Below, piece by piece: positions 2,172 through 63,339 of a stretch of 64,000 bases of DNA. The stretch is from IMG/VR virus record IMGVR_UViG_3300045988_151707, positions 1 to 64,000 of that record; one strand, written 5' to 3'. A model generated the notes under the pieces. That model saw only the letters and a program-made list of their open reading frames with translations, searched no databases and was not told where the DNA came from. The translations under genes were made by a program, and so were the position numbers. Within the stretch, counting starts at the first letter, position 1. Each line of letters opens with the position of its first letter. The stretch comes from a virus.

Positions 2172-2213
2172 CTAAATTACCTCCCAGACCGACCGTTTTT
2201 GAAGGACAAAAAA
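2172..2213 (-). promoter_or_regulatory. Late-type promoter module (T-run, GTCCTTCA, N20, TAATTTAG) upstream of HU gene 1
   Basis: Minus strand reads TTTTTTGTCCTTCA-N20-TAATTTAG, ~50 nt upstream of the ATG at 2124. One of eight copies. Confidence 0.6.
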
Positions 2214-9217: not shown

Positions 9218-9220
9218 GTT

Positions 9221-9883: not shown

Positions 9884-9911
9884 AGTTTGTGTTTCCGTGT
9901 TTGTGCTTATA

Positions 9912-9946: not shown

Positions 9947-9959
9947 CTTTAGATTTGTA

Positions 9960-10667
9960 TCATTGCAAAATCTCCCAGTCTTCTGCGAATACATCCGCTA
10001 TGGAAGGATTCCATGAGTCAGCACGACCGGTATTTTCATTGTAAATAAGGCACTGGCACGTGTAATCAATAAATCCTTTTCCTTTCAGGATGATTTCTTT
10101 GGCGGATTGTGGGAGTGATTGCATTTTCGGTATTACATCGTTTCCAATGTGTGAAGGAACCTGCTTGACGACAAACATACCTTTACCATTCCATCCTTTT
10201 CTGCGGATACAAAGGCCAAACTTTAAAGCTTCTATTGCTTCACCAAAACTGTATAAGGTATTACACTTCGTTTTGCTACCGTTTGCATATTCAATACGGT
10301 TATGTAAAGTCCCAAGATAGCTTCCCATAGCTTCTCTTTGAAGGTGCATAAGGAAAGCTGGATAATCTTCTTTGATTACCTCACGGAATTTTTCTGAATC
10401 TACGAATGAGCTACACTTTTCATACTTTTCTGATAGCTCTTCGTCTTCAATCATCATTCTGTCAATGAAAGTTTCAACACATTTGTACCTTTCCTCAAAT
10501 TCTGCTTTTGGAATAAAACTTACGCATCCATTGGAATCTACCACCTTGTATCCTTCCACTCTCGGTTCCATGGTTTTGGGGGTTGCATCCGTAGGAAGGT
10601 AAATATTACCACCTTTCAGAATTGCTTCTGTAGCCTGTACTTCTTCTGTTCTAATAAATTTCTTCAT
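9960..10667 (-). CDS. Two-domain protein with C-terminal DUF2829 (Tad2-like, anti-Thoeris family) domain
   Basis: C-terminal ~100 aa FGEAIEALKFGLCIRRKGWNGKGMFV...WNPSIADVFAEDWEIL match the DUF2829 hallmark (RKGW..G......W.P...D..A.DW.I). N-terminal ~135 aa unassigned. Confidence 0.7.
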   Translation of the reverse strand: MKKFIRTEEVQATEAILKGGNIYLPTDATPKTMEPRVEGYKVVDSNGCVSFIPKAEFEERYKCVETFIDRMMIEDEELSEKYEKCSSFVDSEKFREVIKEDYPAFLMHLQREAMGSYLGTLHNRIEYANGSKTKCNTLYSFGEAIEALKFGLCIRRKGWNGKGMFVVKQVPSHIGNDVIPKMQSLPQSAKEIILKGKGFIDYTCQCLIYNENTGRADSWNPSIADVFAEDWEILQ

Positions 10668-10798
10668 AATCTTCTTAATTTAATATTGTATTAATCTGAA
10701 AAACAACTATTTAACTTTTAATGTAAAAATAAGCACATCGAAACATGCTTATTTTTACATTTGGCTACGAAACCATTTTCGTGACCATACGGAAATGG

Positions 10799-11371
10799 TT
10801 ACTGCTTGAATATGCTTTTCGTATGCTCCTTCATCCGAAACATCTCCGCCACATTCTCATACTCTTCCGGCGAAGTGGTAAGTGTGAACATCTGCATGGC
10901 GTTACTGCGCTGGGTGTTCAGGCTTCCCTGGATAACCAGGCTGTGCGATTTGCTTTTCACCGTGACGCAGCGGAAACCCACATTGTCCTCACAAACCACC
11001 AGCCGGCCCGACTGTATAAACTCGCCCAACTGCGTGCGAATCTCCTGTCGCTGGTTGAAGGTGGCTCCTGTGGATGCAGGCTGCGAAATGAGTATCATTT
11101 TGCTGACATCAGCAATATGGTCCGACGGATTTGTAGGATCGGGCTTCACACGCGAAAGAATGCGACGGATGGTTTGAATGAGCTTTACATCGAGCCGCAC
11201 CATGACAATGCCCATTTCACCTCCGGAACAGTAGCCGGACAGCGTGCCCAGCAGGTCGCACATATCCCAGTCAGAAAAACTGAAGAAGTTGGCAGCCGTG
11301 TGCTTTTTGCTGCACTCGTCAATCATGCCTTCCAGCTGCTTGTGGTAGCAGCAGGGTTCAATTATTCTCAT
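10799..11371 (-). CDS. Hypothetical protein
   Basis: 190-aa ORF; its start overlaps the stop of the upstream gene by 4 nt. Confidence 0.5.
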   Translation of the reverse strand: MRIIEPCCYHKQLEGMIDECSKKHTAANFFSFSDWDMCDLLGTLSGYCSGGEMGIVMVRLDVKLIQTIRRILSRVKPDPTNPSDHIADVSKMILISQPASTGATFNQRQEIRTQLGEFIQSGRLVVCEDNVGFRCVTVKSKSHSLVIQGSLNTQRSNAMQMFTLTTSPEEYENVAEMFRMKEHTKSIFKQ

Positions 11372-12570
11372 AACGCACCTCCTTTCATCTGTCCTTCGGT
11401 CACACTCTCAGTAGGGTCTACTTTCTTGCGCGGAGTTTCTGTAGCTTTTTTCGGTTCTTCTGCCGATTTTTGGCGGTTTTCCGTGGATTCGGCACGTTTT
11501 TCCTCATTTACGGTAGTATTTTCGGCCTTTTCGGATTTCTTTTCTGATTTTACTTCCGTTTCTTTCGGTTCCGCTTTATCGGTGGAAGCTGGCTTTTCTT
11601 CTGTATGTACGGATGCAACCGGAGCGTTTACACCGGGAATGGAGATACCGGCTGCAGTAGCTACTTCTGCCGTTTTCTTAGGCAGGTTTTCTCCCCATTC
11701 CATCAGCTCCTCGATACGAAGGCGAAGCTGTTCCTTGTACTCCTCGGTAATCTTCACGTCGCTGCGGTTGATGTATTTCTTGTTTCCTTCCACGCGGGCC
11801 TTGCGGCATACTTCCTGCTGGCGTACATCCTTCATGGCTTCTATCTCGGCACGGGTAAAGTCGCCAGGACGTTTCATGCTGTCGGCTGTGGAAGTTTCCT
11901 GCTCGGTGTAGGTACCGTTCAGTGCTGCATCCACATTGGTCCAGAACGCGCGGATTTTCTGCTCGGATGCGATGGCTTTCTTGGCCATGTCCGCGCGTGC
12001 TTCGTCGCTTACGTTGGGATTTTCGGCCATTACTTCCAGCGTGCCGCGATACTCGGCCAGTTCCAGGTACATGGTGGAAAGTTCTTTTTCTCCCTTGTCG
12101 CGGAGAGATTTCGGCAGCTTATCTTTATAGAGGGCAAATTCTTTCGGTCTGCGACCGTCCACTTCCTGCTCTTCGTACTGGCGTGCGGTCATGTTTCCTT
12201 CTTCATCGGGCGCACCATCATCCGGAACAATCGCTTTGTAACGAACGGTTCCAACCGGACCGCGAGTGGCTTTCTTGGCCAGTCCGGATTTCTTCCGTAC
12301 TTCCTGCAGGAACAGGTTCATCTTGTTGAGTGCACGGCGGGCTTCATAGCGCTGTACGTCGCGAAGGAAATCCTTTGCCCGCACAATGGCCGACACCAGA
12401 CGGCATCCTTCGTCGAAATCCTTCACAGGCACCTTCATCCAGCATTCGGCCAGCGCCAGCAGTTCCGGAAAAGTTTCGTCCGTCCATCGTTTCACCCGGT
12501 CCAGATAATCTTTCTTTTCTTCCTCGTTCATGGTTCTGTAGTCTTTTAAGTATTCTTTTTCTGTAATCAT
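11368..12570 (-). CDS. Hypothetical highly charged protein (Lys/Glu-rich C-terminus)
   Basis: 400-aa ORF, first gene after a late-type promoter. Low-complexity KE-rich tail. Confidence 0.6.
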   Translation of the reverse strand: MITEKEYLKDYRTMNEEEKKDYLDRVKRWTDETFPELLALAECWMKVPVKDFDEGCRLVSAIVRAKDFLRDVQRYEARRALNKMNLFLQEVRKKSGLAKKATRGPVGTVRYKAIVPDDGAPDEEGNMTARQYEEQEVDGRRPKEFALYKDKLPKSLRDKGEKELSTMYLELAEYRGTLEVMAENPNVSDEARADMAKKAIASEQKIRAFWTNVDAALNGTYTEQETSTADSMKRPGDFTRAEIEAMKDVRQQEVCRKARVEGNKKYINRSDVKITEEYKEQLRLRIEELMEWGENLPKKTAEVATAAGISIPGVNAPVASVHTEEKPASTDKAEPKETEVKSEKKSEKAENTTVNEEKRAESTENRQKSAEEPKKATETPRKKVDPTESVTEGQMKGGAL

Positions 12571-12597: not shown

Positions 12598-12640
12598 CAA
12601 AAGTAGGGAAAACCTATATGTCGTTGAAGGACATAAAAAA
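12598..12640 (-). promoter_or_regulatory. Late-type promoter module (GTCCTTCA-N19-TACTTTTG)
   Basis: Minus strand reads TTTTTATGTCCTTCA-N19-TACTTTTG, ~25 nt upstream of the ATG at 12570. Confidence 0.65.
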
Positions 12641-12670
12641 GTCCGGCACCGATTAGCAAGTGCCGGACTT
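12640..12670 (-). terminator. Rho-independent terminator feeding directly into the promoter module
   Basis: AGTCCGGCAC-loop-GTGCCGGACT followed on the minus strand by TTTTT. Confidence 0.7.
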
Positions 12671-12711
12671 TCATCCACTTTTTCGTTTGTTAGAATATGC
12701 AAATCAAACGG

Positions 12712-13921: not shown

Positions 13922-15178
13922 TTACTCTTCGTCGTCCGGTTCGAAGATGGCCTGAAGGTAAGTCGGGGATCCGTCGTAAACGATGTCACGCGGAGAGATT
14001 GTTGCACCGTCGCTCCATGCCTTGAACTTGTATCCAGATTCAGCAGCAGGAGTCAGTTTCACGGTTTCGTCCTTCGTATATACATCCTTTTGCGGTGAAA
14101 GCGTTACCTTACCCCATTCTTCGTTGTTGGAAGTAACGGTCAGGGTATTCTTCTGGTAGTCACCGTTCAGCTGTTCAATCTGTTCGATAGTACCGTCGCT
14201 CACACAGAACTTGGATGGTGCGATGTCCAGAATACGTGCGCCTACGGTAGACTGTACCTGGAAAATCAGCACGTTCAAGTCGTTCGGGTCGTGACTCATC
14301 ATCACCGCGTTCCAGTCGCTTGCACGGTCAAGACCGAACTGCAGGTTTTCAGGGAGAGTAGCAATCATACGATTACCCTTACCAATAATACCGTCGGTTA
14401 CAATCTTGATGTTTTCCATTCCCACAAATGAGAATCCTTCACCGCCTGCACTTGTAGTCTGCAATCCGGTAAACTTACGCATGTAGCTGTGGGTAATGAG
14501 TCGCTTCTGCTTCGGAGACATGTAAACGATTACTTCCTGAGCGTTACGCAACAGCGGATGCCATCCTTCCACCCATTCTACAAATGCGTCGAAGTGTTCT
14601 CCATCCTGAGTTTCAGGACCGTCGTTAATCGGGTCGCAAGCCACAAGGTTTCCTTCCTTGGAAGAAATCTTACCCTGATTAATAAGGTTGTTAATGATAG
14701 TCCAGTAACCGTTGTACAGACTGAGCGGGTCGTCTTCTCCCAATTCAATGTTACCGAAGAAAAGGTTGCTCAGGTTATCGCCGGCAAACTGCTTACCAAT
14801 CTGACGAAGGATAAATTCTGTAACCGGTGCATTGTAGGTTCCGTTTGAACCCAGGATGCTGAACGGCTGTTTTTCGCGGAAGTTCTGAAGGTTTTCGAAG
14901 TAACGTGACCAAATCTGGTTCATCACCAGTTTGCTTTCGTCCATGAAACCAAGGGTTGACTTCAGCGTAGAACCTTCCTTGTAACGGCGGGCTTCACCAC
15001 CCTTACGACGGAAAATGATTTGAGTCTGTGCGTATTCAATATCTTCGATAACCTTGATGCGAAGTTTGTTAAACACTGCCATGTTATCGAGAACCGGGCT
15101 TTCGATGATGTCCGGAGCAAGAATGTCTTTTACGTGCGAAACATTCTCTTCACTGAGTGCGTATAACTTTGTAGCCAT
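13922..15178 (-). CDS. Major capsid protein candidate with C-terminal Listeria/Bacteroides-repeat (Flg_new-like) domain
   Basis: 418 aa, immediately downstream of the protease-scaffold gene. C-terminal ..VKLTPAAESGYKFKAWSDG.. resembles the GY.F.GW repeat. Confidence 0.65.
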   Translation of the reverse strand: MATKLYALSEENVSHVKDILAPDIIESPVLDNMAVFNKLRIKVIEDIEYAQTQIIFRRKGGEARRYKEGSTLKSTLGFMDESKLVMNQIWSRYFENLQNFREKQPFSILGSNGTYNAPVTEFILRQIGKQFAGDNLSNLFFGNIELGEDDPLSLYNGYWTIINNLINQGKISSKEGNLVACDPINDGPETQDGEHFDAFVEWVEGWHPLLRNAQEVIVYMSPKQKRLITHSYMRKFTGLQTTSAGGEGFSFVGMENIKIVTDGIIGKGNRMIATLPENLQFGLDRASDWNAVMMSHDPNDLNVLIFQVQSTVGARILDIAPSKFCVSDGTIEQIEQLNGDYQKNTLTVTSNNEEWGKVTLSPQKDVYTKDETVKLTPAAESGYKFKAWSDGATISPRDIVYDGSPTYLQAIFEPDDEE

Positions 15179-15221: not shown

Positions 15222-16796
15222 TTATCGTGCTTTGCTGATTTCAGCATCACGCTTGCGGCGGGCTTCAGCTTTTTCGGCCCAGCTCATGTTTTCACCGCAT
15301 ACGCTCTGCACATGGAACTGTCCGCTTTCCTGACCTCCATTGTTGTCTTTCGGAGGGTCCTGCGGAGTAGGTTCCAGCTGTGCCGTTTCGCTCAGCTCCT
15401 TGATTTCCGCATCCTTTTGTTCGATGCTCTTCTGAGCTTCATTCAGCTTCGCTGTCAGGTCTTCCGATTCCTTCTTATGAGCGTCCTTCAATGAAGAAAC
15501 CTCTTTTTCGTGTTCCGCTTTCAGGTTTGCCAGCGCTTCCGCATGGTCTTTCTTCATCTTTTCAATGGTTGCGTTAAGCTGTTCTACTTCCGTGAGTTTT
15601 GCAGCCAGCGTAGATTCCGTCTGTTTAGCTTTCATGACGAACGCTTCTACATTGTCCGCCATGGTTTCCACCATGTAGAAACCGCCGTTTTCTTCGACTA
15701 CCAGAGAGTTTACCTGTGCAGCCGACTGAATAAAGGGATAGCTTTTTGCCATAGTTGCTTGTTTTTGAGTTTGTGATTCTGTTTTATATGATGCCGGCTG
15801 CTCCACAGAAGCCTGTTCCTGTGTTCCCGGCTGCTTTTCTTCCTTGATTCCTGCCGATTTGCTTTCTTCGCGTGAGGCTCCGGACGAATTTCCTTTCTGA
15901 CTCTGACTCACTCCGGCCAGCTGCTGCACGCGGTTCACGCAAAACTTGAAGTCACCCTGACCGTCGACCATGGTACCCACCACATCGCCCGCATCGAAAG
16001 TTTTTCCGGTCAGCTGGTCGTCCGTCACTCTGGGACGGCGCTCGCGTACCATCTGCTGAAAGTCGGCACAAAGCCGGTTCAGCTCTTCCTTGATGCCTTC
16101 GTAGTTTCCCTCGGCCGCGTCGCGGTACTCCTTGTTCTTATAAGGAGATCCGTCGGCGTAAATCTCGGCGTAGCGCTCCTGGGTCACGGTGTTCACATCG
16201 CCGTCCTTGTTAGTGAGCATCGCGCACATGGTACCGATACATCCCACCGTGTCGTGCGGATTGGTGAAATACACTTCGTCGCACAGGGCCATCAGCGCAT
16301 AACCGGCACTGCAGGCCATCCCGTCGATGTGACCGACAATCTTCTTTCCTTTTGATCGTGCGTAGTTGAGGGCCATCTCATAGTCGTATTTCGCCATGCT
16401 GCTACCGCCCGGGCTGTCCATCTCGATAATAAATCCGATGGTATGCGCATCGTCAGAAGCACGCATGATGATGTCCTTGTGTTCCTTGCTTCCGTAGGAG
16501 CACAGGTCGCCATTACGAAGAATGGGGCCCTGTACGTCGATAACCGAAATGATGCGGTCGTCTTCTTCCAAATCGTACCAGTAGGTTATGCGGTCGTAAT
16601 TACCCACGTAGGTTTTCTCCGTAAACCCGTCGCGCGAAGAAAGGAAGTAAGGTCGGTCGGTCCGCTCGTCCGGCTTCTCGTAAGGACGGTGTGAGGCAAT
16701 GTTGTCAAGAATCGTTCTCCGGTAAGCATGCAGAGACTCCGGGTAAAAGTCCCAGAATCGCGTAGACATAATTTCGTGAAATGCTCTTGTTGCCAT
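15222..16796 (-). CDS. S49 (SppA/ClpP-fold) prohead protease fused to a coiled-coil scaffold domain
   Basis: ..IIEMDSPGGSS...IDGMACSAGYALMALCDEVYFT..VGCIGTM. C-terminal heptad-rich ..KLTEVEQLNATIEKMKKDHAEALANLKAEHEKE.. Confidence 0.85.
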   Translation of the reverse strand: MATRAFHEIMSTRFWDFYPESLHAYRRTILDNIASHRPYEKPDERTDRPYFLSSRDGFTEKTYVGNYDRITYWYDLEEDDRIISVIDVQGPILRNGDLCSYGSKEHKDIIMRASDDAHTIGFIIEMDSPGGSSMAKYDYEMALNYARSKGKKIVGHIDGMACSAGYALMALCDEVYFTNPHDTVGCIGTMCAMLTNKDGDVNTVTQERYAEIYADGSPYKNKEYRDAAEGNYEGIKEELNRLCADFQQMVRERRPRVTDDQLTGKTFDAGDVVGTMVDGQGDFKFCVNRVQQLAGVSQSQKGNSSGASREESKSAGIKEEKQPGTQEQASVEQPASYKTESQTQKQATMAKSYPFIQSAAQVNSLVVEENGGFYMVETMADNVEAFVMKAKQTESTLAAKLTEVEQLNATIEKMKKDHAEALANLKAEHEKEVSSLKDAHKKESEDLTAKLNEAQKSIEQKDAEIKELSETAQLEPTPQDPPKDNNGGQESGQFHVQSVCGENMSWAEKAEARRKRDAEISKAR

Positions 16797-16825: not shown

Positions 16826-16868
16826 CGAAATTACGCACGCGAAATGCGGTAATGAAGGACACAAAAAA
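16826..16868 (-). promoter_or_regulatory. Late-type promoter module (GTCCTTCA-N19-TAATTTCG)
   Basis: Minus strand reads TTTTTTGTGTCCTTCA-N19-TAATTTCG, ~30 nt upstream of the ATG at 16796. Confidence 0.6.
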
Positions 16869-17721: not shown

Positions 17722-18384
17722 TTATGGCGTGTATATACAGATTCTTCCGGTTCTCGACTCAAGCTCTTCTTTTCTCACTTTGATGTCAGACTTCATTCTG
17801 GATTTGATTCTCCACCAATATCGCATCATGCTCTCAAATCTTTTCATGTCTATATCGTACAAAACAATGAAATCAGACATGACATCTTCGGAAGTAACAT
17901 GTTCGCCCATTCTATTTGCCCGGAAAATACAGTCATCATGAAATCTGGCGAAATCATACCAGAACTCACGTTTCAATTCATTCCTTATCTTCTTACTTCC
18001 GTTGATATTCAGGTGAAAAAACTTATCCACTTTCACCTCACCGCTAAATTTGCAGACGCTTTCAGGCATTTCCAACTCCAGGTAATCTTCTTTCTCTTTT
18101 TCAGTCAACATTTTAAACTGAGCGGTAAATAATGATTTCTGAGGTTTCAAATGAAAGGCTACTTCATTATAGGAAAAATCTGTTATACCCGAAAAATCTG
18201 CATCTCTGAACAAGTGAGTCTTCATATATACACCCAGAAGGCTGTTCTGAGGAAACCTGACCGGAGTTCCATACTTTATTTCGAAGTATTTCTTATAATA
18301 ATCACTCACTTTAAGGAAGCATGAGTGACGCTGCTCATTCATTGAATTTTTTGGCATAGTAGTAAGATAAAGTCTGTAAATCAA
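17722..18384 (-). CDS. Hypothetical protein
   Basis: 220-aa AT-rich ORF. Start possibly at the internal Met (MPKNSMNEQ, ~18357). Confidence 0.5.
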   Translation of the reverse strand: MIYRLYLTTMPKNSMNEQRHSCFLKVSDYYKKYFEIKYGTPVRFPQNSLLGVYMKTHLFRDADFSGITDFSYNEVAFHLKPQKSLFTAQFKMLTEKEKEDYLELEMPESVCKFSGEVKVDKFFHLNINGSKKIRNELKREFWYDFARFHDDCIFRANRMGEHVTSEDVMSDFIVLYDIDMKRFESMMRYWWRIKSRMKSDIKVRKEELESRTGRICIYTP

Positions 18385-18724
18385 TTAATCAACAGCAAGT
18401 TACGGACGATTCAACACCAATCGGAATTTCATTCAACAAAAAAAGGTTAAGCGACTGGGGCCTTATTTTGCGTGTTTTTCACGATTTTGCAAAGCTGTGC
18501 AATTTTCTTGCAAAACACTTCTCAATACTTATTTATTTAATTATCAATCATTTATAGTGTATAATAAATAATAAATAAAGAGTTATTGCCGATTGTTCAT
18601 TGATTTTGAAGTGAAGAAAACGTATTTTTTCGGTAAAGAACAGATTTCAGGCTGTACGGCTTTTTCTTTTATGTCCATTGCGTAGCTCTCTCTGTTACAC
18701 GGTGAAGTTGGATATAAAGGAAGT

Positions 18725-18794
18725 AGAACGAAAGGGGAAAGGCGTGCTTTGTCGTCCCGCGTTCCGCAGGCCGACCTTTCCCTCCTTTCGTTCT
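18725..18794. other. Long imperfect GC-rich hairpin inside a gene-free region
   Basis: AGAACGAAAGG-GGAAAGG pairs with CCTTTCC-CT-CCTTTCGTTCT (11 + 7 bp stems, 2-nt bulge, 32-nt loop). Confidence 0.7.
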
Positions 18795-19347
18795 TTCAGG
18801 TTTCCATTCGGATTCCTTCCCCATTCGGACGCTCACAGGAAGAAATGATTCGACTGATGTACGCCCTTCTCTACCCTACGAAAAATTTTTATTTTAAAGA
18901 TTTTGTAAACTCGTTTTTCGTGAAAAATCGGCAAAATATCAAAAAGTACAATACTTTTAATTGATTATCAGATAGTTATTCATTGCAAAAATTTAGCCAA
19001 CGCTTCGCAAGCTTTGCAAAATTGCTTACAAATGATACTTAACTAACTGATTATCAAATTGCAAAATGTTTTGCAAAGGGTGTGTAAAACTTGTAATATT
19101 TGATACTGAATTGATTTTCTAAGCGATTTTCTCTTTGTGTCGGAATGATTTTCCTGAAAGTCTCGTGCCTACTCCACTCAAATGGCGTAACTACGCGACA
19201 AAAGTGTCTATTAAGCGCGGCCGCAGTGGCGATACTATGCCAGTTTGGAATTTATGTGACGAAATACGGCTTTTGTTGACAGAAAAAAGGCGTAAAAGTG
19301 CTATTACATACACTTCTACGCCTCCTTAAAAATGAATCAGAAAGTGA

Positions 19348-19800
19348 TTAATTGAAACCTCCTCCTCCCTGGTCCTCTCCTTCCTCACCCGGCTCGGTTG
19401 TTCCTGGTGTGCTGTTTCCTTCTTCATACATCCTGTTGAGCGACATCTTGTCTATCTGTGCCTTGAAATCCTTACTCGGCTGGAACAGCACTCTTTTACG
19501 GATAATCTTTTCTTCTCCGCTTACCTCGGAACTCTTACAGGTAATGGCTGGCTTCAGGTATCCCATGTTTCCCAGGCTTACACCATGACCTTCGAGCATC
19601 CAGGTACAAGCCGATTCCACCATGGTCTCTACCACGGCGCGGCAGGTTGCCTTACTGATTCCGGAACGGAGGGAAATCTGTTCGATTACTTTTTCAAAAC
19701 TTACGGTTCCACCACGAACCGCTTCGGCCACATACTTTTCTGTGCCATCCTTGTCAAATCCAAAGGTCTTCTTTACGACCTTATAGTTCAAGCCTCCCAT
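19348..19800 (-). CDS. HU/IHF-family DNA-binding protein, second paralogue, tail ending GGGGFN
   Basis: ..SKATCRAVVETMVESACTWMLEGHGVSLGNMGYLKP..VLFQPSKDFK. The start at 19800 (MGGLNYKV) mirrors paralogue 1; the ORF track extends to 19854. Confidence 0.8.
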   Translation of the reverse strand: MGGLNYKVVKKTFGFDKDGTEKYVAEAVRGGTVSFEKVIEQISLRSGISKATCRAVVETMVESACTWMLEGHGVSLGNMGYLKPAITCKSSEVSGEEKIIRKRVLFQPSKDFKAQIDKMSLNRMYEEGNSTPGTTEPGEEGEDQGGGGFN

Positions 19801-19861
19801 AGTTGTATTTGTATTTAAAAATTCGACGGATAGAAGCGCTTCGTGCGATTCCACCCGTCGA

Positions 19862-19902
19862 TAAATCTAATTTTGCAACCCTCGTTTATGAAGGACTAAA
19901 AA
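19862..19902 (-). promoter_or_regulatory. Late-type promoter module (GTCCTTCA-N19-TAGATTTA)
   Basis: Minus strand reads TTTTTAGTCCTTCA-N19-TAGATTTA, upstream of HU gene 2. Confidence 0.55.
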
Positions 19903-31156: not shown

Positions 31157-31450
31157 TTAAGAGAGGAATTTCACCTCGTAGTTCATGCTTTCCATTTTGG
31201 CTTGTATCATTTCTTTCAGGCTATCGGGCAGGCACATCATAGGGTCTGGCTCATGCAGGTAAATCGTATCTTCCTGCACGCTTCCTGTGGCAGAATATCC
31301 GTCGTACACCAGCTCGTTCATGAGCTTCTGCATGCACGACTTCGACAGGTTGCCGCAAGCTATGCTCACGCTACCTTCCGGATAGCCTATCGCTATTTCC
31401 GTGTGACGCACATGGAAACGCTGTTCATATACCGCTCTGTTTCGTTTCAT
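31157..31450 (-). CDS. Hypothetical protein
   Basis: 97-aa ORF with a 4-nt overlap to the upstream gene. Confidence 0.45.
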   Translation of the reverse strand: MKRNRAVYEQRFHVRHTEIAIGYPEGSVSIACGNLSKSCMQKLMNELVYDGYSATGSVQEDTIYLHEPDPMMCLPDSLKEMIQAKMESMNYEVKFLS

Positions 31451-32082
31451 ACCAGCCGCTTTCCTTTTAGTGTCAACATAAGCTCAGGACGTGTAGCCAC
31501 ACCCAACTTCGCAAAAATACGTTTCCGCATGTTGTCTATATTGGAATAGCTGCATCCCATTTCGTCGGCAATCTCTTCGTAGGTGAGCGAAGTATTTACC
31601 AGCATGTTCGCCACAGCAGCCTGAGTGGGAGTCAGCCCGCACTCGTACACCGGATTGCAGCACACCTCCTTTTTATCCTTGAAGGCGGGGTTGAATCCGT
31701 TGAACGGACAGTTATATCGCATAGGGCAGTGCGTGTTCTCGGTATTGAAGTCTTCCGGACCTTCATGGTCGGGAATATCGTCCTCGCGTCCGAAACAACA
31801 GTTCAGGCTTACCAGCGCAAGCTCTGACAGATAGCGGCTGCGAAGGTTCCGTATGGTCTTATAAGAACGTCCAAGTCGAATCTGCAGAAGCTGGTCGGCT
31901 GCCACCAGGTGTGAAGGATAGTTTTTCTTCATCTCGTCGAGGTATTCCTCTACGAAGTCAATTCCCGTCTTTCCGTCGTTCTTTACCGTGATTTCCTCTC
32001 CGTCTTCAAAAACAATTCTTGAGAATCCGTCCTGAATGCGTGTGTGCGCTTCCCATTGTCTTTCCAGCATGTATCCCATCAC
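31447..32082 (-). CDS. LuxR/GerE-type (sigma region 4-like) HTH regulator with Cys-rich central segment
   Basis: C-terminal LTPTQAAVANMLVNTSLTYEEIADEMGCSYSNIDNMRKRIFAKLGV. Central HCPMRYNCP...CCNPVYEC. Confidence 0.7.
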   Translation of the reverse strand: MMGYMLERQWEAHTRIQDGFSRIVFEDGEEITVKNDGKTGIDFVEEYLDEMKKNYPSHLVAADQLLQIRLGRSYKTIRNLRSRYLSELALVSLNCCFGREDDIPDHEGPEDFNTENTHCPMRYNCPFNGFNPAFKDKKEVCCNPVYECGLTPTQAAVANMLVNTSLTYEEIADEMGCSYSNIDNMRKRIFAKLGVATRPELMLTLKGKRLV

Positions 32083-32596: not shown

Positions 32597-33886
32597 ATGT
32601 ACTATTTCAATTCTTTCCTGTTCAATAATCTTCCCAAGCTCTTCGGTCTGAGCGAAAAAGGCGTGTCGGAGAAGGTGTACGGAAAATCATACATGTATAA
32701 AAGAAAGGTTGATAATCAAGACAATATACTCGTGCATGACATCGTAATGGTGTGCAACACATTCCACATAAGCCTGTCAAACTTCATTATGTCGGCTCCT
32801 CCTGAAAATTTACTCGGAAATCGCTTCAAATATGTCATACCGGATGAAGATTTTAAAGAGGTAAGATTCATACCCGAAAACTTGCGCTGGCTCTACGGTC
32901 CGCAGGGACTTACCAAAATTCCTTCGCTTGCTGAATTTTCGCGTCAGAGCGGAATATCAGTCACCAGTATCGTAAGGTGGCAGAATCCGAAGATAGGAGG
33001 GTGTACGGTTAACTGGCTTATCGGAATATGCAACCGTTTCGGAATCGACATAGACGTGTTCATGGAAGACGAGAATGAGAAGCTTGAAAAGTACGCGGCC
33101 ACCGAGACGGAAATATCGCCGCGCGTGTGGCAGGAAATTTCGGAACTCAAAGAGGCTATAAGGCAATACCGGCAGGAACGAATCTCACTTCTGGATGAAA
33201 ACCGCAAGCTGAAAGCAAGAATCAAGGAAACGGAGCTTGTGGCAGAAGAAAGCACCGAATATACCTACGCAGACAGGAAAGTCAGGGAATGGAAGGCTAA
33301 CTGGGGACTGCTGGAGAACTTTCATATCGTCGTGGGAGTGTCCAGACGAAAAGTGATTCAGGATGCCGGCATGCAGAATTTCAGCGAACTCTTTATTGAA
33401 GGAAACATGCTGATTACCTCGCTGGTGAAACTTTGCAACAAATACCATATCAGCACAAGACACATATTCTATCGGGATAACGGCATTGTTCCGGAAGTAA
33501 ATGTGTACGACTATTACCGGTCGGACAACTGGAAGACGGTAGTTTTCCATCCGGAATATGTGAATGATTTTTTCGGGAAGGAGAGCGTGACGGGTATAAA
33601 CCGCTCGGAACTGCTGTCACGCATGGAAGTGGGCGAATGGAAACTTCGTGCATGGCGAAAAGAAAACAGCACCATGCGCATAAAAGACATGCTGGAGATA
33701 TGCAACCGGCTGGAAGTAAGTCCTTACTACCTTATTTCTGACCACAACCGGATGGACCTTTCCAGCGGGATGACCAGTGCGGAAATCCTGCTGGAAGAGA
33801 ACCGTATGCTCCGCCAGCAGGTTATCCGGTTGAAAGAAAAACTACAGAAGAAAAACGGAGAAGGATTCCTTCCGTTAGACGAATGA
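32597..33886 (+). CDS. Multi-HTH repressor-like protein (four degenerate HTH modules plus two coiled coils)
   Basis: Repeated modules ..IVMVCNTFHISLSNFI, ..LIGICNRFGIDIDVFM, ..LVKLCNKYHISTRHIF, ..MLEICNRLEVSPYYLI. One of the very few plus-strand genes, and divergent from the early operon. Confidence 0.6.
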   Translation: MYYFNSFLFNNLPKLFGLSEKGVSEKVYGKSYMYKRKVDNQDNILVHDIVMVCNTFHISLSNFIMSAPPENLLGNRFKYVIPDEDFKEVRFIPENLRWLYGPQGLTKIPSLAEFSRQSGISVTSIVRWQNPKIGGCTVNWLIGICNRFGIDIDVFMEDENEKLEKYAATETEISPRVWQEISELKEAIRQYRQERISLLDENRKLKARIKETELVAEESTEYTYADRKVREWKANWGLLENFHIVVGVSRRKVIQDAGMQNFSELFIEGNMLITSLVKLCNKYHISTRHIFYRDNGIVPEVNVYDYYRSDNWKTVVFHPEYVNDFFGKESVTGINRSELLSRMEVGEWKLRAWRKENSTMRIKDMLEICNRLEVSPYYLISDHNRMDLSSGMTSAEILLEENRMLRQQVIRLKEKLQKKNGEGFLPLDE

Positions 33887-43635: not shown

Positions 43636-43677
43636 CAAAGTTAGGCACCCGAAATGTGGAAATGAAGGACAAAAAAA
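43636..43677 (-). promoter_or_regulatory. Late-type promoter module (GTCCTTCA-N19-TAACTTTG)
   Basis: Minus strand reads TTTTTTTGTCCTTCA-N19-TAACTTTG, 20 nt upstream of the tape-measure ATG. Confidence 0.7.
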
Positions 43678-43705
43678 CGGTGTCCGTCAGTTCAACGGAC
43701 ACCGT
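43677..43705 (-). terminator. Rho-independent terminator (11-bp stem plus T7)
   Basis: ACGGTGTCCGT-loop-ACGGACACCGT followed on the minus strand by TTTTTTT. Confidence 0.75.
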
Positions 43706-43717
43706 TTTAAAACTATT

Positions 43718-49027: not shown

Positions 49028-49323
49028 GATCCTGCCTCCCTTATGGTTGCTTTTGTAACTTTACTTGATACAACAATTTTAATATACTTAGGATAGACCG
49101 CATGACAAAAATCTGCATCTATTACGTCCCCCCACTTTAGTTCAATATATGAACGCCTATACTTTCCTTCATCACTTCCCCTTTGATAAATCTCCAATGT
49201 TCCTCCACTCTCCATTTCGATATGAAGATTATAGTCTGAGTTTACTTTTGTTTCTGATACAAATGATTTGCCTTCCTCATTAAATAATAATTCTCTCTGT
49301 TCCATGATATTTGTTTTTAGCAA
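49024..49323 (-). CDS. Hypothetical protein, first gene after a late-type promoter
   Basis: 99-aa ORF. Confidence 0.5.
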   Translation of the reverse strand: MLKTNIMEQRELLFNEEGKSFVSETKVNSDYNLHIEMESGGTLEIYQRGSDEGKYRRSYIELKWGDVIDADFCHAVYPKYIKIVVSSKVTKATIREAGS

Positions 49324-49362
49324 AAATAAGTAACATACACAAAAATAAGAAGGACAAAAAAA
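49321..49362 (-). promoter_or_regulatory. Late-type promoter module (GTCCTTCT-N19-TATTTTTG)
   Basis: Minus strand reads TTTTTTTGTCCTTCT-N19-TATTTTTG. The -7 box abuts the ATG region of 49323. Confidence 0.55.
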
Positions 49363-55548: not shown

Positions 55549-55947
55549 TTATTCCATTTCAGGCGTATTTTTTTCAAAAAGAGCGGCAATAGCTTTTACC
55601 ACATCGTAGAAACCGCATCCACTAAGGCCGGCAGCCAGTCCGTAAATAAGCGTTCCCCACCATTGGTATCCTTCGAGCAGAGGAGTAAGCTGAAGCGCCC
55701 ATGCCAGCACGCAAACCACCATACCTACCGCCACGCTCACACCGATTTTTGCGAGCTTGCTTCCTGAAATGGCAGGAATTACTTTCAGGATTTGCGTCAC
55801 GATAGCCGAGATAAGTGCTACGATTCCGGTAAACGTGCCTAGGTCGATTACGAATCCGGCAGTAGAAGGTTCAGAGGTTACAACGCCCTGTGCGAAAACG
55901 GTCACTGCAGAGATCAGCATTGCAAACATTAAAATCATCTTTTTCAT
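55549..55947 (-). CDS. Holin candidate (small protein with multiple TM helices)
   Basis: 132 aa with 3-4 hydrophobic helices. First gene of the operon that contains the amidase. Confidence 0.5.
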   Translation of the reverse strand: MKKMILMFAMLISAVTVFAQGVVTSEPSTAGFVIDLGTFTGIVALISAIVTQILKVIPAISGSKLAKIGVSVAVGMVVCVLAWALQLTPLLEGYQWWGTLIYGLAAGLSGCGFYDVVKAIAALFEKNTPEME

Positions 55948-55990: not shown

Positions 55991-56032
55991 CAAAGTTACG
56001 AAGAGCACATTGGAGAATGAAGGACAAAAAAA
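55991..56032 (-). promoter_or_regulatory. Late-type promoter module (GTCCTTCA-N19-TAACTTTG)
   Basis: Minus strand reads TTTTTTTGTCCTTCA-N19-TAACTTTG, ~45 nt upstream of the ATG at 55947. Confidence 0.7.
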
Positions 56033-59221: not shown

Positions 59222-62200
59222 TTATCCTATTTTATAACAAATTCCATTTTTAAAATAAAGGGTTTTTGAATACCCGTTTGGGGGCACATATTCTGCGGTA
59301 CCTGTAAATCCAGTAACTGAATTACCTCCTTCTGTCATTGATATTTGAGTAGGATTTATAATCATACTAGAATCTCCCATCTTTAATCTTATATCTCCGT
59401 TTGTTATCTGAGTGCTCTTGTCACCGCTGTTCATTCTTATGTCAAACGGGTATAGGTAAAGCGTTTCCCCTTCAATATTTTTCAATGATATTGCAGCTGA
59501 TTCATATCCTGAATTGTCGTAGAAAAACCAGCTAGAAAGCACATTCCCTGTACTTGAAACTAAAGCCATTTGTCTTGAATCAGGGTCTAATATAATTCTG
59601 TTTCCATCTGAATTAGTAACAACACCTCCAGTGAAAGTACCTGTAGCAGATTTCAACTCACCGGAAAAAGATCCGCTCGTAGCTACGACTTCACCTTGTA
59701 TATGTGCTTTTGTAGCATACATCTCACCAGATTCCGTCACACGGAAGGGAGCAGAAGCACGGTTCTCGTAAGTGCTTCCTGCAAAAATACGCACAAGGCT
59801 GCCTGAATTGCTTCCTGTCATACCTGCAGTAACAGTACCATCATCTTTCTGTATAAGCAGGTCGTTTCCCTGAAACAACTGTATTTTTGCATTCTTGGCT
59901 ATAATCAGTGATGTAAAAATAGAACCTACATTCGCGCCAAACCTTTTCCAAAATTCAGTGTTTGCGTATGTAATGCTGCTGCTCGATACATGCGTTTTCA
60001 AACACTGGTATGCGTCCCATCCGGTTTCAACAGCATTGTTTCTTACCAATACTACATCTATATAACGAACAGGAAGGCTTCCGTCTTTCACATCGCTGTC
60101 ATTACGGTATTCCGTGTTCAATGCCCATTCAGAATCGCGGATTACACATCCCTGAAGACCGTCTGCCCCTTTCTCGCCAAGCTGTGCAAATACAGCAGGA
60201 GTAGAGAATAACCCCCATTCTCCATCTGTTGATTTCCTTCTTTTAGAGACCCATTCGTATGGATAAGAAACAGAAATACCTGAAGGTGAGCGTGTCCATC
60301 CACTTGGTATGTAATCATCTATCTGTGCTGTTGTTGGAGTTGAAGGGGTTGAATTTATTGTTGTTCGTGTGTAAATTTCTTCAGTATAAGGTCCGTCTTC
60401 GCCTTTTTGAGCAATTATTTCGTATTCTAAAGAGTTTTGTTCTCCCGTTAGTATATATCCTCCATCTTCAAATATAAATCTATTCCCATCATTATCTGTC
60501 CAACACCATAAAGGAGGATTGTTAGTTGCATTTTTTGCAGAAAATGAAGAACCACACATTGTTACAACACCCATTTCAGGAACTTCCATGCCAGACTCCC
60601 ACCTTCCAATATAAGTTAACCCAGCTCCATCTTCACCCTTATCTACTTGTAGAAGCCAATCAGCATTTTCCTTGGAAGGTTCTGTATCTGTCCCGTCTTC
60701 TGCTACGCATAGCCACAATATACCATCATGGCTTACACGGTCATAAAATTCATATTTTGTGCCACTTTCCCATTGACCTCTGTCATTTGCCACAAGAACC
60801 GGCGTTCCATCTGGTCTTACTTGATTTATTGTACCAGTAAAATACACAGAATTAAGGTACATGGAGTAACCAGACATGTTCAGCCCGAATATGTTCAAAT
60901 TCGTCAGGTCGCCATACTGCATGGCAATATTCCCAACCGTAAATTCCCAGTCATTCTGTTTCCAGAGAAGTCGGGTATATGATCGTGTTTCGTATGCGGA
61001 GCTTTGTCTTGCTTCATCAGTAAAGTTTCCGTAGCATGAAAAACTCATCTGTGGCTGTGGATGAATAGTATATCCGGGACGAAGTGCATAACGGAATGTC
61101 TCATTATTATCTCCCGACACCTCCGTCACGCGAAAATAGGTGGTTGCAAATCCGGAAAATTTGAAGTTACCTTTGCTGTCGTCAGAATCCTCGGTAGCAT
61201 CCCTTTCATCGCCAAAATGGAAGATACCAAGTGCAATGTCATCCTTAGATACCGCACCAAACTCTCCTTTTTCCAGCTTTAGTGTACAAGTTCCAGTTGT
61301 AAGCTGATTACCTTCCGAATCCGTATCAGGTGTGCATGACAGAATAATTCCAGCACCAGGTACACGCCATTTAATCCCCAGGAAAATCTCTACACGGTTG
61401 TACCGGAGTTCAGGAACCTCCAGAAATTCCCACAAGCGAAGTCCGCGCATTTCTCCGTATCCTTTTTTATCTATCTTTGCGCCAAAACCGGTTAAACCTT
61501 CGGCAAAACCTTTCTCTCCCACCACAATTCCTGCCATCATCGTAAGCAAGAATTTTGTGGAGTCTTCACGGTCTTTATTGATAAGGTATTGTCTGAGAAG
61601 GTCTAAATATTTTCCAGTAAGCAACTTGGTTGTGGGCACGGATTCGTCGCTTTGAAGGAATTCTCCCTCATCTCCCTGGCGTGCCACATCAGAAATCTGC
61701 TTGTCGTTGATAACCAGCTTGCCGATAATGGAAAGCGTGCCTTGAACTATGTAGGAAGTGAAGCGTTTCAGCGGACGGATAAGGTCATCGGCTGTCACTT
61801 CAAACAGTTCTTTCCATCCGGCTGTATCCTGCGTTTGTCCTTCAGGAGTAGAAAGCTTACCGTAGTCCAGTGTAATTTCACGGTCGAGGGTGGCAGCTTC
61901 CAGACTGTCGGTGGCGGTAATGCTTCCGATACGTATGTAATAGAAATCTTCGCTGGGATTCTCTCCGCCGATGCTTCCGTCAGTAGCATAGTCGTTCACG
62001 GAAAACAGCACCATGGCATCGTCAGAACCACGTTCCAGACGGGCATAGATGTAGTGTGCCTCCGTGCGGTTCAGACGGGTGTTGTATCCCGTCAGCGTCC
62101 AGCTTCGGTATTCTCCGTTGGGCAGATAATCTATGCCGTAGCTTTTCTGCGGAGCCACCATGATGGTACAGCCCGGAACCACCCCCACCTGAATCAGGTT

Positions 62201-62281
62201 GGGGTTTTCCAGTGCATTTTCTATCATGGACACGCCCTGGTAAGAAATTCGGTATGCGTTACTCTGGTAATCGGTTATCAT
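59222..62281 (-). CDS. Large tail-fibre / receptor-binding structural protein
   Basis: 1019 aa, beta-rich, and adjacent to the fibre-tip genes. Confidence 0.55.
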   Translation of the reverse strand: MITDYQSNAYRISYQGVSMIENALENPNLIQVGVVPGCTIMVAPQKSYGIDYLPNGEYRSWTLTGYNTRLNRTEAHYIYARLERGSDDAMVLFSVNDYATDGSIGGENPSEDFYYIRIGSITATDSLEAATLDREITLDYGKLSTPEGQTQDTAGWKELFEVTADDLIRPLKRFTSYIVQGTLSIIGKLVINDKQISDVARQGDEGEFLQSDESVPTTKLLTGKYLDLLRQYLINKDREDSTKFLLTMMAGIVVGEKGFAEGLTGFGAKIDKKGYGEMRGLRLWEFLEVPELRYNRVEIFLGIKWRVPGAGIILSCTPDTDSEGNQLTTGTCTLKLEKGEFGAVSKDDIALGIFHFGDERDATEDSDDSKGNFKFSGFATTYFRVTEVSGDNNETFRYALRPGYTIHPQPQMSFSCYGNFTDEARQSSAYETRSYTRLLWKQNDWEFTVGNIAMQYGDLTNLNIFGLNMSGYSMYLNSVYFTGTINQVRPDGTPVLVANDRGQWESGTKYEFYDRVSHDGILWLCVAEDGTDTEPSKENADWLLQVDKGEDGAGLTYIGRWESGMEVPEMGVVTMCGSSFSAKNATNNPPLWCWTDNDGNRFIFEDGGYILTGEQNSLEYEIIAQKGEDGPYTEEIYTRTTINSTPSTPTTAQIDDYIPSGWTRSPSGISVSYPYEWVSKRRKSTDGEWGLFSTPAVFAQLGEKGADGLQGCVIRDSEWALNTEYRNDSDVKDGSLPVRYIDVVLVRNNAVETGWDAYQCLKTHVSSSSITYANTEFWKRFGANVGSIFTSLIIAKNAKIQLFQGNDLLIQKDDGTVTAGMTGSNSGSLVRIFAGSTYENRASAPFRVTESGEMYATKAHIQGEVVATSGSFSGELKSATGTFTGGVVTNSDGNRIILDPDSRQMALVSSTGNVLSSWFFYDNSGYESAAISLKNIEGETLYLYPFDIRMNSGDKSTQITNGDIRLKMGDSSMIINPTQISMTEGGNSVTGFTGTAEYVPPNGYSKTLYFKNGICYKIG

Positions 62282-63279
62282 TTCCCTTTTCTGTATTTCT
62301 GATTCATTTTCTCAATTTCCTTGGCTTCCTTGGCCATGGCATTCATAATTCCCAGGATGCGGACCGCCTCGCTGTCGTACACTGCGTCGTAGTCACTGAA
62401 TCCCTGATACTTCATGATGTTGTTAATCATTTCCACCTCTATCTTGATGGGGTTCTGCCGTCCGTTCTTTTTCCCGTTAGGCGTGAACAGCTCCGGATAC
62501 ATGCGTGCGTAGGCTTCCTGCACGCTCTGAAAATACTGCACCATGACGGGGAACATGCGGGCTTCTACCATGCTAAACCAGCGGGCGTTTTTCTGTATCT
62601 GTCCGGAGTTGAACGACCACACGCGGCGCTTACACTTGCGCAGGTAGCGCCCTTCGCGTATCTCTCCCGTCTCGCGCACGGATTCGTTGAACAGCGTGGC
62701 CAAAAACCGGCAGCGTGCCTGCTTCATGCGGCGCAACTGCATCCGGATGGCGGCATGGGTCGATTTTCGCCTTACAAGCGTCTGTAGAACCTTCTGTGCG
62801 TCCCAGTACATGATAAGCAGATTCTGTGCGGACTGGTACTGCGCAAAGCTGACATCGGACATCACATCTTTCGGTGCTTTCAGACGAAGGGTCCCCATAC
62901 GAAGCCGGATAATTCCGTATGGAGTGACGGTGCGTGCAAAAGGATTGTCCAGAAAACCGAGCTTCTGGTCTATCCACTGGTCCACCTGCCATGCCCGCAT
63001 GGGAATGCGCTCAAACAGGTGTCGAATCCCTTTGCGCCGGAAGAGAAACACCGTCTCACCATTTTCATCGGTCACGGTGCGCCGCACGATTTTCAGTCCG
63101 AGAAAAAGCATGAAGCACTTCAGCTTGAAAAGTCGGTCGGCACGTTCCTCGTCGCCTGCCGCAGCCATAGCCTCCTTACGCTTGTAAAGTCTGTTCACCT
63201 CTTCCAGTTCTTCGGTCGACAGCCAGTTCCAGCTGTCGGGAAGTTCCGGAAGATGTATCTGGTAGTTTGTCGTATCCAT
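62278..63279 (-). CDS. Hypothetical protein, first gene after a late-type promoter
   Basis: 333-aa ORF with a 4-nt overlap to the fibre gene. Confidence 0.5.
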   Translation of the reverse strand: MDTTNYQIHLPELPDSWNWLSTEELEEVNRLYKRKEAMAAAGDEERADRLFKLKCFMLFLGLKIVRRTVTDENGETVFLFRRKGIRHLFERIPMRAWQVDQWIDQKLGFLDNPFARTVTPYGIIRLRMGTLRLKAPKDVMSDVSFAQYQSAQNLLIMYWDAQKVLQTLVRRKSTHAAIRMQLRRMKQARCRFLATLFNESVRETGEIREGRYLRKCKRRVWSFNSGQIQKNARWFSMVEARMFPVMVQYFQSVQEAYARMYPELFTPNGKKNGRQNPIKIEVEMINNIMKYQGFSDYDAVYDSEAVRILGIMNAMAKEAKEIEKMNQKYRKGK

Positions 63280-63298: not shown

Positions 63299-63339
63299 CA
63301 AAGTTAGGTATATGACAACTGGGGATGAAGGACAAAAAA
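63299..63339 (-). promoter_or_regulatory. Late-type promoter module (GTCCTTCA-N19-TAACTTTG)
   Basis: Minus strand reads TTTTTTGTCCTTCA-N19-TAACTTTG, 19 nt upstream of the ATG at 63279. Confidence 0.7.

What the first reader, a model, noticed from the sequence alone, without database searches (positions are those of the whole stretch)
43636..43677. Eight copies of a phage-specific promoter module: T-run, GTCCTTCA, N19, TAnnTTTG
On the minus strand the same architecture precedes eight transcription units. They are HU-1 (2172-2213, N20), the 12570 operon (12598-12640), protease/capsid (16826-16868) and HU-2 (19862-19902). The rest are the tape measure (43636-43677), the DGR-target operon (49321-49362, box GTCCTTCT), holin/lysis (55991-56032) and the fibre operon (63299-63339). 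Spacing is exactly 19 nt in seven of the eight. The -7 box matches the Bacteroides primary-sigma consensus. The position normally holding the -33 TTTG is replaced by the conserved GTCCTTCA. In three cases a terminator hairpin supplies the T-run, giving terminator-promoter cassettes. All controlled genes are structural, lysis or HU genes, so this looks like a late-promoter class. It would need a phage factor, by analogy with T4 MotA boxes replacing -35.
Basis: partly seen in the sequence, partly recalled or inferred. Interest (0 to 1): 0.65.

Follow-up and report, generated by a model that had tools for sequence, protein, structure and literature searches.

The report
Late-gene promoter class of gut phage
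A 110-kb gut Bacteroidales phage starts its virion, packaging, lysis and HU operons with the same two-part promoter, a private T-run+GTCCTTCA box exactly 19 bp upstream of a normal host promoter box; related Bacteroidota phages share this design, which implies an unidentified phage-encoded switch for late genes.

Summary
All eight sites exist as described. The complete 110,035-bp phage genome has ten, all on the minus strand and all just upstream of operon starts. Across this phage and seven relatives, the box-to--7 spacing is 19 nt in 31 of 31 exact cases. Relatives whose proteins are only 35-50% identical keep the box and the -7 element while the spacers are unrelated. The motif belongs to a wider class, TGTCC-N23-(TA)nnTTTG. 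That class also occurs in ~40-kb 'TGTCCCA' phages, Polaribacter phage Leef_1, Porphyromonas gingivalis prophages and 'Microcystis' phage Mea-Yong924-1, all of which share terminase, portal and capsid genes with this phage. Host genomes show only chance-level matches, and the phage has no sigma, MotA, AsiA, Mor/C, Ogr or ArpU homologue. The best reading is a late-promoter class that host sigma-A RNA polymerase uses together with an undescribed phage factor acting at the -33 position. The factor is not identified. A basic 220-aa protein (17722-18384) is found in every lineage just upstream of the head operon, and I consider it the better candidate. No transcript data could be obtained.

The parts
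43636..43677 (-). Box promoter of the tape-measure/tail operon: TTTTTTT-GTCCTTCA-N19-TAACTTTG, 20-nt leader, ATG at 43615
   Evidence: Orthologous sites in relatives keep both boxes while the spacers differ.
43674..43708 (-). Intrinsic-terminator hairpin whose U-tract is the T-run of the tape-measure promoter
   Evidence: RNAfold -24.2 kcal/mol
2172..2213 (-). Box promoter of HU-HIG gene 1 (1642-2124): TTTTTT-GTCCTTCA-N20-TAATTTAG
   Evidence: HU-HIG PF18291, E 1.7e-27.
12598..12640 (-). Box promoter of the operon 2334-12570, which holds a 400-aa protein, the large terminase (7391-9217) and others: TTTTTTAT-GTCCTTCA-N19-TACTTTTG
12637..12672 (-). Terminator hairpin abutting the T-run of the 12632 promoter
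   Evidence: RNAfold -23.2 kcal/mol
16826..16868 (-). Box promoter of the head operon (S49-type protease 15222-16796, capsid 13922-15178): TTTTTTGT-GTCCTTCA-N19-TAATTTCG
   Evidence: The distant relative L167 has a perfect TAATTTTG at the same position.
19862..19902 (-). Box promoter of HU-HIG gene 2 (19348-19800): TTTTTA-GTCCTTCA-N19-TAGATTTA, with a 61-nt structured leader
49321..49362 (-). Box promoter of the operon holding the DGR target gene: TTTTTTT-GTCCTTCT-N19-TATTTTTG
55991..56032 (-). Box promoter of the holin/lysis operon (holin 55549-55947): TTTTTTT-GTCCTTCA-N19-TAACTTTG
63299..63339 (-). Box promoter of the fibre operon (62278-63279, 59222-62281): TTTTTT-GTCCTTCA-N19-TAACTTTG
17722..18384 (-). 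Candidate reader or activator 1: a basic 220-aa protein with no known domain, present in every phage lineage that has a TGTCC box. It always lies just upstream of [~146-aa gene]-box-protease-capsid and is never behind a box itself.
   Evidence: No Pfam or PHROG match. Weak MarR-like hit, E 0.08.
31447..32082 (-).
   Evidence: Homologues in Leef_1 and Mea-Yong924-1. Its recognition helix is not conserved.

Best explanation
The sites are the late promoters of the phage. Host RNA polymerase with the primary Bacteroidota sigma (sigma-ABfr type) reads the TAnnTTTG -7 box. The usual -33 TTTG is replaced by a private element, a T5-7 run followed by GTCCTTCA, held exactly 19 bp from the -7 box. If transcription starts about 7 nt past the -7 box, this element spans roughly -34 to -47. 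A phage-encoded protein made from the early operons most likely binds this element. It would either recruit RNA polymerase or stand in for sigma region 4, which switches on the head, packaging, tail, fibre, DGR-target, lysis, portal and HU operons together. At three sites the T-run also serves as the U-tract of the previous operon's terminator, so each unit is insulated and restarted. Shown: the motif, its rigid spacing, its position in front of operons, its deep conservation, its absence from host genomes, and the absence of a phage sigma. Inferred: promoter activity, late timing, the need for a phage factor and that factor's identity. The best candidate is the 220-aa protein at 17722-18384. 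The weaker candidates are the LuxR-like protein at 31447-32082 and the 87-aa pre-portal protein at genome 74805-75068.
For: Motif statistics: 5 strict matches in the window against 0.03 expected, and ten copies in the genome, all on one strand and all 15-61 nt upstream of an ATG that opens a gene block. Spacing: 31 of 31 exact box/-7 pairs in eight genomes or loci sit at N19, and none at N10-18 or N20-30. Conservation: 30 of 30 related IMG/VR records have 1-8 copies, on a single strand in 28 of them (G004 and G006 each have one copy on the other strand), and the reversed-pattern control gives 0. Relatives with 35-50% protein identity (L167, L327, L330, L332) keep the T-run, GTCCTT[CT][AG] and N19-TAnnTTTG at orthologous genes with unrelated spacers. 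Wider class: in 703 kb of other phage loci, non-ascertained TGTCC-Nk-TAnnTTTG occurs 15 times at k=23 and 0-2 times at any other k from 12 to 35. G031 has 8 sites on one strand. The same boxes head late operons in Leef_1, a P. gingivalis phage and Mea-Yong924-1. Not a host signal: 56 scattered single hits in 596 Gb of prokaryote genomes, and 1-6 TGTCC-N23 hits per 2.7-6.1 Mb Bacteroidota genome against 0-5 for the control. No Sigma70_r2 in the phage at E<=1. Downstream genes are HU-HIG, S49 protease, holin, fibre, tape measure, adaptor and portal. The -7 consensus is that of sigma-ABfr (PMC7366714).
Against: Three of the ten -7 boxes are imperfect. The reader protein is unidentified. The LuxR-like candidate's recognition helix differs between lineages (NIDNMRKR, TVKKQREQ, TTEKLGSE) while the box stays the same. 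The 220-aa candidate is only 30% identical between G000 and the otherwise close relative G006 and has no recognised DNA-binding domain. In the related phage G034 one TGTCC site lies in front of the primase gene, so the class may not be strictly late. In Bacteroidota the -7 box alone may give some transcription (PMC7366714 notes that the -33 motif is not always detectable), so a factor may enhance expression without being required.
Confidence: 0.7

Rival explanations
1. The sites are strong promoters read by host RNA polymerase alone. The T-run would act as an UP-like element and GTCCTTCA as a tolerated or extended -33 variant. No phage factor would be needed, and timing would be set by other means such as read-through or genome copy number.
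For: The -7 boxes are good matches to the host consensus. The -33 element is weakly conserved in Bacteroidota (PMC7366714). T-runs upstream of promoters commonly stimulate transcription (general knowledge).
Against: If host polymerase favoured this element, host genomes should use it, yet matches there are at chance level. An invariant 8-9-nt word at a rigid 19-bp distance, kept across relatives at 35-50% protein identity, points to a sequence-specific reader. The flank upstream of TGTCC differs between lineages (T-run here, TTAACACGC in Mea-Yong924-1, none in TGTCCCA phages) while TGTCC stays.
Confidence: 0.12
2. The box is an operator for a phage repressor that keeps the late operons silent during the plasmid-like carrier state, as the asymmetric C1 operators of phage P1 do. 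It would not be an activator site.
For: It encodes a CI-type HTH protein at 32597-33886. The box is asymmetric and overlaps the -33 position, where a repressor would block polymerase.
Against: An operator needs overlap, not an exact 19-bp register in 31 of 31 cases. Without the box these promoters have no -33 element at all. A different 34-bp repeated operator at the early promoters was noted by another reader (e1-3781763, untested) and would suit the CI-type protein better. The box also heads late operons of relatives that have integrases and no plasmid module, such as Leef_1 and Mea-Yong924-1.
Confidence: 0.08
3. A divergent phage-encoded sigma-like factor, not recognisable by sequence, reads both boxes. 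These would then be promoters of a phage holoenzyme, as with phiEco32 gp36 or SPO1 gp28.
For: The two-box design with fixed spacing is what a sigma factor reads. Several conserved phage proteins have no known fold.
Against: No Sigma70_r2 match at E<=1. The only sigma-region-4-like protein has no region 2 in its model. The downstream box is the host's own -7 consensus, which argues for host sigma region 2.
Confidence: 0.07

Closest known systems
Bacteroidota primary-sigma (sigma-ABfr) promoters: -33 TTTG / -7 TAnnTTTG (PMC7366714 and its refs 6, 7)
   Same: The -7 element is the same, with 7 of 10 sites exact. The roughly 19-bp distance to the upstream element is also the same, and genes follow within 15-61 nt.
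   Different: The -33 TTTG is replaced by T-run+GTCCTTCA, with TTCA in its place. This element is absent from host genomes beyond chance.
Phage T4 middle promoters (MotA box at -30 plus the host -10; MotA/AsiA sigma appropriation)
   Same: The host downstream element is kept, and the upstream element is replaced by a phage-specific asymmetric ~9-bp box at a fixed distance. Many copies are spread through the genome.
   Different: No MotA (MotCF) or AsiA homologue. The host sigma and phylum differ, the genes controlled are late rather than middle, and the mechanism is untested.
Phage Mu late promoters (Plys, PI, PP, Pmom) activated by C; P2/P4 late promoters activated by Ogr/Delta; P1 late promoters activated by Lpa
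   Same: A handful of late operons are each headed by the same activator site overlapping or adjoining a poor -35, and all are switched on by one small phage protein made earlier.
   Different: Those sites are dyad-symmetric, whereas this one is asymmetric. No Mor/C or Ogr/Delta homologue was found. An Lpa homologue was not searched for.
RinA/ArpU/Ltr late activators of Gram-positive siphophages (PMC3152322)
   Same: The activator gene sits at the early/late junction, just upstream of the first late operon. The 220-aa gene at 17722-18384 occupies that position here.
   Different: No ArpU-family match. Those systems usually have one late promoter, whereas this phage has ten.
TGTCC-box promoters noted by other agents of this scan in other Bacteroidota phages (e1-2836040, e1-3510224, e1-3507836, e1-4282935, e1-3381961; unpublished AI notes)
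   Same: The core (TGTCC) and the geometry (23 nt to the -7 box) are the same. I reproduced this independently.
   Different: This lineage has its own extended word (T-run + GTCCTTCA), a genome of about 110 kb, and ten sites including two HU genes.

Membership tests
Bacteroidota sigma-ABfr-type promoter | -7 element TAnnTTTG | tested here: met
   7 of 10 sites are exact and 3 are one base off. The consensus is taken from PMC7366714.
Bacteroidota sigma-ABfr-type promoter | -33 element TTTG about 19 bp upstream of the -7 box | tested here: not met
   That position holds TTCA, the last four bases of GTCCTTCA. The TTTG formed by the T-run plus G lies 26 nt from the -7 box.
Bacteroidota sigma-ABfr-type promoter | Transcription start a few nt downstream of the -7 box | not testable with these tools
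T4-type middle promoter (sigma appropriation) | Host downstream element kept, and upstream element replaced by a phage box at fixed distance | tested here: met
   N19 in 31 of 31 cases.
T4-type middle promoter (sigma appropriation) | MotA and AsiA homologues encoded by the phage | tested here: not met
   PF09158 (MotCF) and PF09010 (AsiA) give no match at E<=1.
Mu Mor/C- or P2 Ogr-dependent late promoters | Mor/C or Ogr/Delta family activator encoded | tested here: not met
   PF08765 and PF04606 give no match at E<=1.
Mu Mor/C- or P2 Ogr-dependent late promoters | Dyad-symmetric activator site upstream of or overlapping -35 | tested here: not met
   The conserved columns (tTTTTTGTCCTTCAt) form no dyad, and the sequence further upstream is not conserved.
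Phage-sigma-dependent promoters | Phage-encoded sigma-70-family protein with region 2 | tested here: not met
   PF04542 gives no match at E<=1. In the 211-aa protein only the C-terminal HTH matches known folds.
ArpU/RinA (Ltr) late activation | ArpU-family protein at the early/late junction | tested here: not met
   TIGR01637 gives no match at E<=1. The junction gene 17722-18384 has no family match.
TGTCC-N23 promoter class of Bacteroidota siphophages (working class, undescribed in papers) | TGTCC core 23 nt upstream of a (TA)nnTTTG box, several co-oriented copies in front of virion operons, and a phage sharing the terminase/portal/adaptor/capsid module | tested here: met
   TGTCCTTCA-N19 is the same as TGTCC-N23. 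The shared module is shown.

The most novel reading that the evidence does not exclude
TGTCC-N23-(-7 box) promoters are one ancient late-gene switch shared by a large lineage of Bacteroidota siphophages from gut, rumen, oral and marine habitats. They would be read by an undescribed family of basic 160-220-aa phage proteins (here 17722-18384) that takes over -33 recognition from the unusual Bacteroidota primary sigma. That would be a new kind of sigma-appropriating or class-II activator with no sequence relation to MotA, Mor/C, Ogr or ArpU.
Probability: 0.3. Interest if true: 0.8.

Novelty: new variant of a known kind. Interest (0 to 1): 0.6.

Why it matters
How phages of Bacteroidota, the dominant Gram-negative phylum of the human gut, time their gene expression is almost unknown outside the crAss-like phages. 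A conserved, easily recognised late-promoter signature gives three things. It is an annotation tool for operon starts and late modules in thousands of uncultured phage genomes. It defines a molecular question, namely which protein reads TGTCC and how it works with a sigma factor that lacks the classical -35 reading mode. That question can be tested in cultured relatives such as Polaribacter phage Leef_1 or in Bacteroides reporter strains. It also offers orthogonal, switchable promoter parts for Bacteroides genetic engineering. I found no description of this box in the searchable literature.

Tried and rejected
- blastn of the head region against the annotated phage collection gave no hit.
- Literature searches for GTCCTTCA, for TGTCC with TAnnTTTG, for Bacteroides phage late promoters and for sigma appropriation in Bacteroidota returned nothing relevant.
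- LuxR-like protein as a sigma: rejected. The AlphaFold model (pLDDT 86) matches known structures only in its C-terminal GerE-type HTH.
- LuxR-like protein as the box reader: weakened. Its recognition helix varies while the box does not, and I did not find it in TGTCCCA or P. gingivalis phages.
- Small 87-aa pre-portal protein (the 'small basic protein' lead from note e1-2836040): I confirmed that it is shared across lineages (hhalign 86%, E 5e-6; reciprocal top HMM hits). Its model is a small beta-barrel with no informative PDB or BFVD match. The gene always lies behind a box and directly 5' of the portal gene, the position of lambda gpW, so a structural role is at least as likely.
- 69-aa Cys4 protein (genome 65636-65845): shared with only one other lineage.
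- Host-regulon idea: rejected.
- The exact pattern TGTCC-N23-TAnnTTTG gives 0 hits in Leef_1 and P. gingivalis phage017a. Their boxes are evident only when imperfect -7 elements are allowed.
- The canonical TTTG-N18-20-TAnnTTTG pattern is rare in this genome, with 3 hits, so I could not define a clean 'early' contrast class.

Full report
**What is there.** On the minus strand, window 43677-43636 reads TTTTTTT-GTCCTTCA-TTTCCACATTTCGGGTGCC-TAACTTTG. A 20-nt leader follows, then the ATG of the 2,154-codon tape-measure gene. The strict pattern GTCCTTCW-N18-21-TAnnTTTG matches five times, against 0.03 expected from shuffles. The other three sites differ from TAnnTTTG by one base. The window's only eight minus-strand GTCCTTC words are these eight sites.

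**Whole genome.** The window is bases 1-64000 of a 110,035-bp IMG/VR virus record with direct terminal repeats. The full genome has two more perfect copies, at 64418 and at 75121. The first precedes the 341-aa head-tail adaptor homologue. The second precedes an 87-aa gene and the portal gene. That gives ten copies, all on the minus strand. A weak variant, GTCCTTTC-N19-TATCTTTG, lies on the plus strand at 353-387.

**Downstream genes.**
- Two HU-HIG proteins.
- The operon containing the large terminase.
- An S49-type protease and the capsid protein.
- The tape measure and tail genes.
- The block holding the DGR target.
- The holin and lysis block.
- The fibre genes.
- The adaptor and the portal.

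**More than chance, and functional.** I pooled this phage with three ~100-110-kb relatives fetched in full and four partial distant relatives. In that set, exact box/-7 pairs occur 31 times at a 19-nt spacing and never at any spacing from 10-18 or 20-30. The conserved columns are tTTTTTGTCCTTCAt ... TAacTTTG, and the spacer carries no information. Thirty related IMG/VR records each carry 1-8 copies, on a single strand in 28 of them (G004 and G006 each have one copy on the other strand). The reversed-pattern control finds none.

The most telling cases are distant relatives whose structural proteins are only 35-42% identical to this phage's (L167, L327, L330, L332). They keep the T-run, GTCCTT[CT][AG] and N19-TAnnTTTG in front of the orthologous protease, HU, 400-aa and pre-portal genes, with completely different spacers. 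In L167 the -7 boxes that are imperfect here are perfect. Both L327 sites read GTCCTTCG, and two of three L332 sites read GTCCTTTA. These look like small concerted changes, as expected if a co-evolving reader exists.

**Terminator-promoter cassettes.** Strong hairpins abut the T-run at 12632, 43670 and 75121 (-20 to -24 kcal/mol). The other seven sites have a T-run without such a hairpin. The T-run is therefore part of the promoter element itself, and at some sites it is additionally used as a terminator U-tract.

**A wider class.** Notes from other agents of this scan reported TGTCC boxes at fixed distances from TAnnTTTG in other Bacteroidota phages. I treated these as leads and tested them. 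All the reported forms reduce to TGTCC-N23-TAnnTTTG, which is also the geometry found here (TGTCCTTCA-N19).
- I fetched 703 kb of viral loci using TGTCCCAAC-N19-TAnnTTTG. Among the additional, non-ascertained TGTCC-Nk-TAnnTTTG pairs, 15 occur at k=23 and 0-2 at every other k from 12 to 35.
- Individual ~40-kb phages carry 4-8 co-oriented sites.
- These phages share the large terminase, capsid, portal, adaptor, primase and tape-measure proteins with this phage at 22-34% identity. They are distant relatives.
- A tblastn search with the terminase also finds Polaribacter phage Leef_1, P. gingivalis prophages and 'Microcystis' phage Mea-Yong924-1.
- In all three, TGTCC boxes with lineage-specific flanks head the late operons. 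Leef_1 has six copies of TTTTTTTA-TGTCC-TTTTTT. Mea-Yong924-1 has five copies of TTAACACGC-TGTCC-TTTTT. The P. gingivalis phage has three copies of TGTCCTTT. The downstream boxes there are less perfect, nnnnTTTG.

**Not a host signal, and not a phage sigma.** The long pattern occurs only 56 times, singly and in all phyla, in 596 Gb of prokaryote genomes. TGTCC-N23-TAnnTTTG occurs 1-6 times per Bacteroidota genome, against 0-5 for the reversed control. By comparison, this phage has ten copies in 110 kb. The phage has no sigma-70 region 2. It also has no MotA C-terminal domain, AsiA, Mor/C, Ogr/Delta or ArpU homologue.

**Mechanism proposed.** The host primary-sigma holoenzyme reads the -7 box; the consensus is given in PMC7366714. 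A phage protein reads the T-run/GTCCTTCA element where -33 recognition would normally occur, in a fixed helical register. This works like T4 middle promoters or class-II activated late promoters. It is not a member of any of those families, because their defining proteins are absent. Promoter activity, late timing and dependence on a factor are inferences, since no RNA data could be accessed.

**Who reads the box? Three candidates.**

1. *The 220-aa basic protein at 17722-18384.* Iterated profile searches across six lineages found homologues in every lineage. Among the proteins shared widely across lineages, it is the one without an evident virion, packaging or replication role. In every lineage it lies just upstream of a ~146-aa gene, a box, the protease gene and the capsid gene, and it is never behind a box itself. 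That is the classic position of a late activator. It has no Pfam or PHROG match and only a weak MarR-like similarity (E 0.08). A caution: it is only 30% identical between this phage and the otherwise close relative G006.

Its confident model has a Cys-rich N-domain with no structural match and a GerE/LuxR HTH. Homologues sit upstream of the primase gene in Leef_1 and Mea-Yong924-1. However, its recognition helix is hypervariable among relatives whose box is invariant. I also could not find it in the TGTCCCA phages or the P. gingivalis phage. It may instead serve the early operators.

3. *The 87-aa basic protein at genome 74805-75068.* Another agent flagged this kind of protein. It is shared with Leef_1 and the TGTCCCA phages. 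It is a small beta-barrel with no informative structural neighbour. It always lies behind a box and directly 5' of the portal gene, the position of lambda gpW. It may therefore simply be a head-completion protein.

**Verdict.** The late-promoter interpretation is well supported by comparative evidence but remains untested by experiment. The named regulators are not supported as readers of the box. The design is a new variant of activator-dependent phage late promoters, in a phylum where nothing of the kind has been described in the papers I could search.

Noticed in passing
window 18385-19347: A ~960-bp AT-rich non-coding stretch lies between the HU-2 gene and the 220-aa gene. It holds at least eight TTTGCAA/TTGCAAA-type words in both orientations, which suggests an origin of replication or an operator array.
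   Followed up: no
window 19800-19861 (minus strand): The 61-nt leader of HU gene 2 contains a hairpin (CGACGGG...CCGTCG) followed by AATTTTT, between the -7 box and the ATG. The G019 orthologue keeps the hairpin with changed bases. This may be an attenuator or an autoregulatory leader.
   Followed up: no
window 353-387 (+), ATG at 406: A weak opposite-strand variant of the promoter (GTCCTTTC-N19-TATCTTTG) precedes a short membrane-like ORF (MKKRKLICTIVGIILGAPLGLVIGY...). That ORF overlaps the longer minus-strand ORF 403-864.
   Followed up: partly
L336 (MZ447863.1, Microcystis phage Mea-Yong924-1) 13088, 17597, 19632, 23769, 28689: A phage recorded as infecting Microcystis carries five TGTCC-box promoters with Bacteroidota-style nnnnTTTG downstream boxes. 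Its terminase is also the closest cultured match to this gut phage's (31% identity). The host assignment may deserve a second look.
   Followed up: no
L224 (Phocaeicola coprophilus DSM 18228, NZ_EQ973638.1) vs relative G006 90822-93888: A 3.1-kb stretch of a P. coprophilus scaffold is 98% identical to part of a close relative of this phage and includes one box promoter. This hints at the host genus or at exchanged cargo.
   Followed up: partly
genome 65636-65845 (+), beyond the window: A 69-aa acidic Cys4 (zinc-ribbon-like) protein has homologues placed directly upstream of the primase gene in the TGTCCCA phages G034 and G039.
   Followed up: partly
window 2645-3724 (-): A KilA-N plus ANT/KilAC anti-repressor-type protein is encoded inside the operon driven by the 12632 box promoter.
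   Followed up: no
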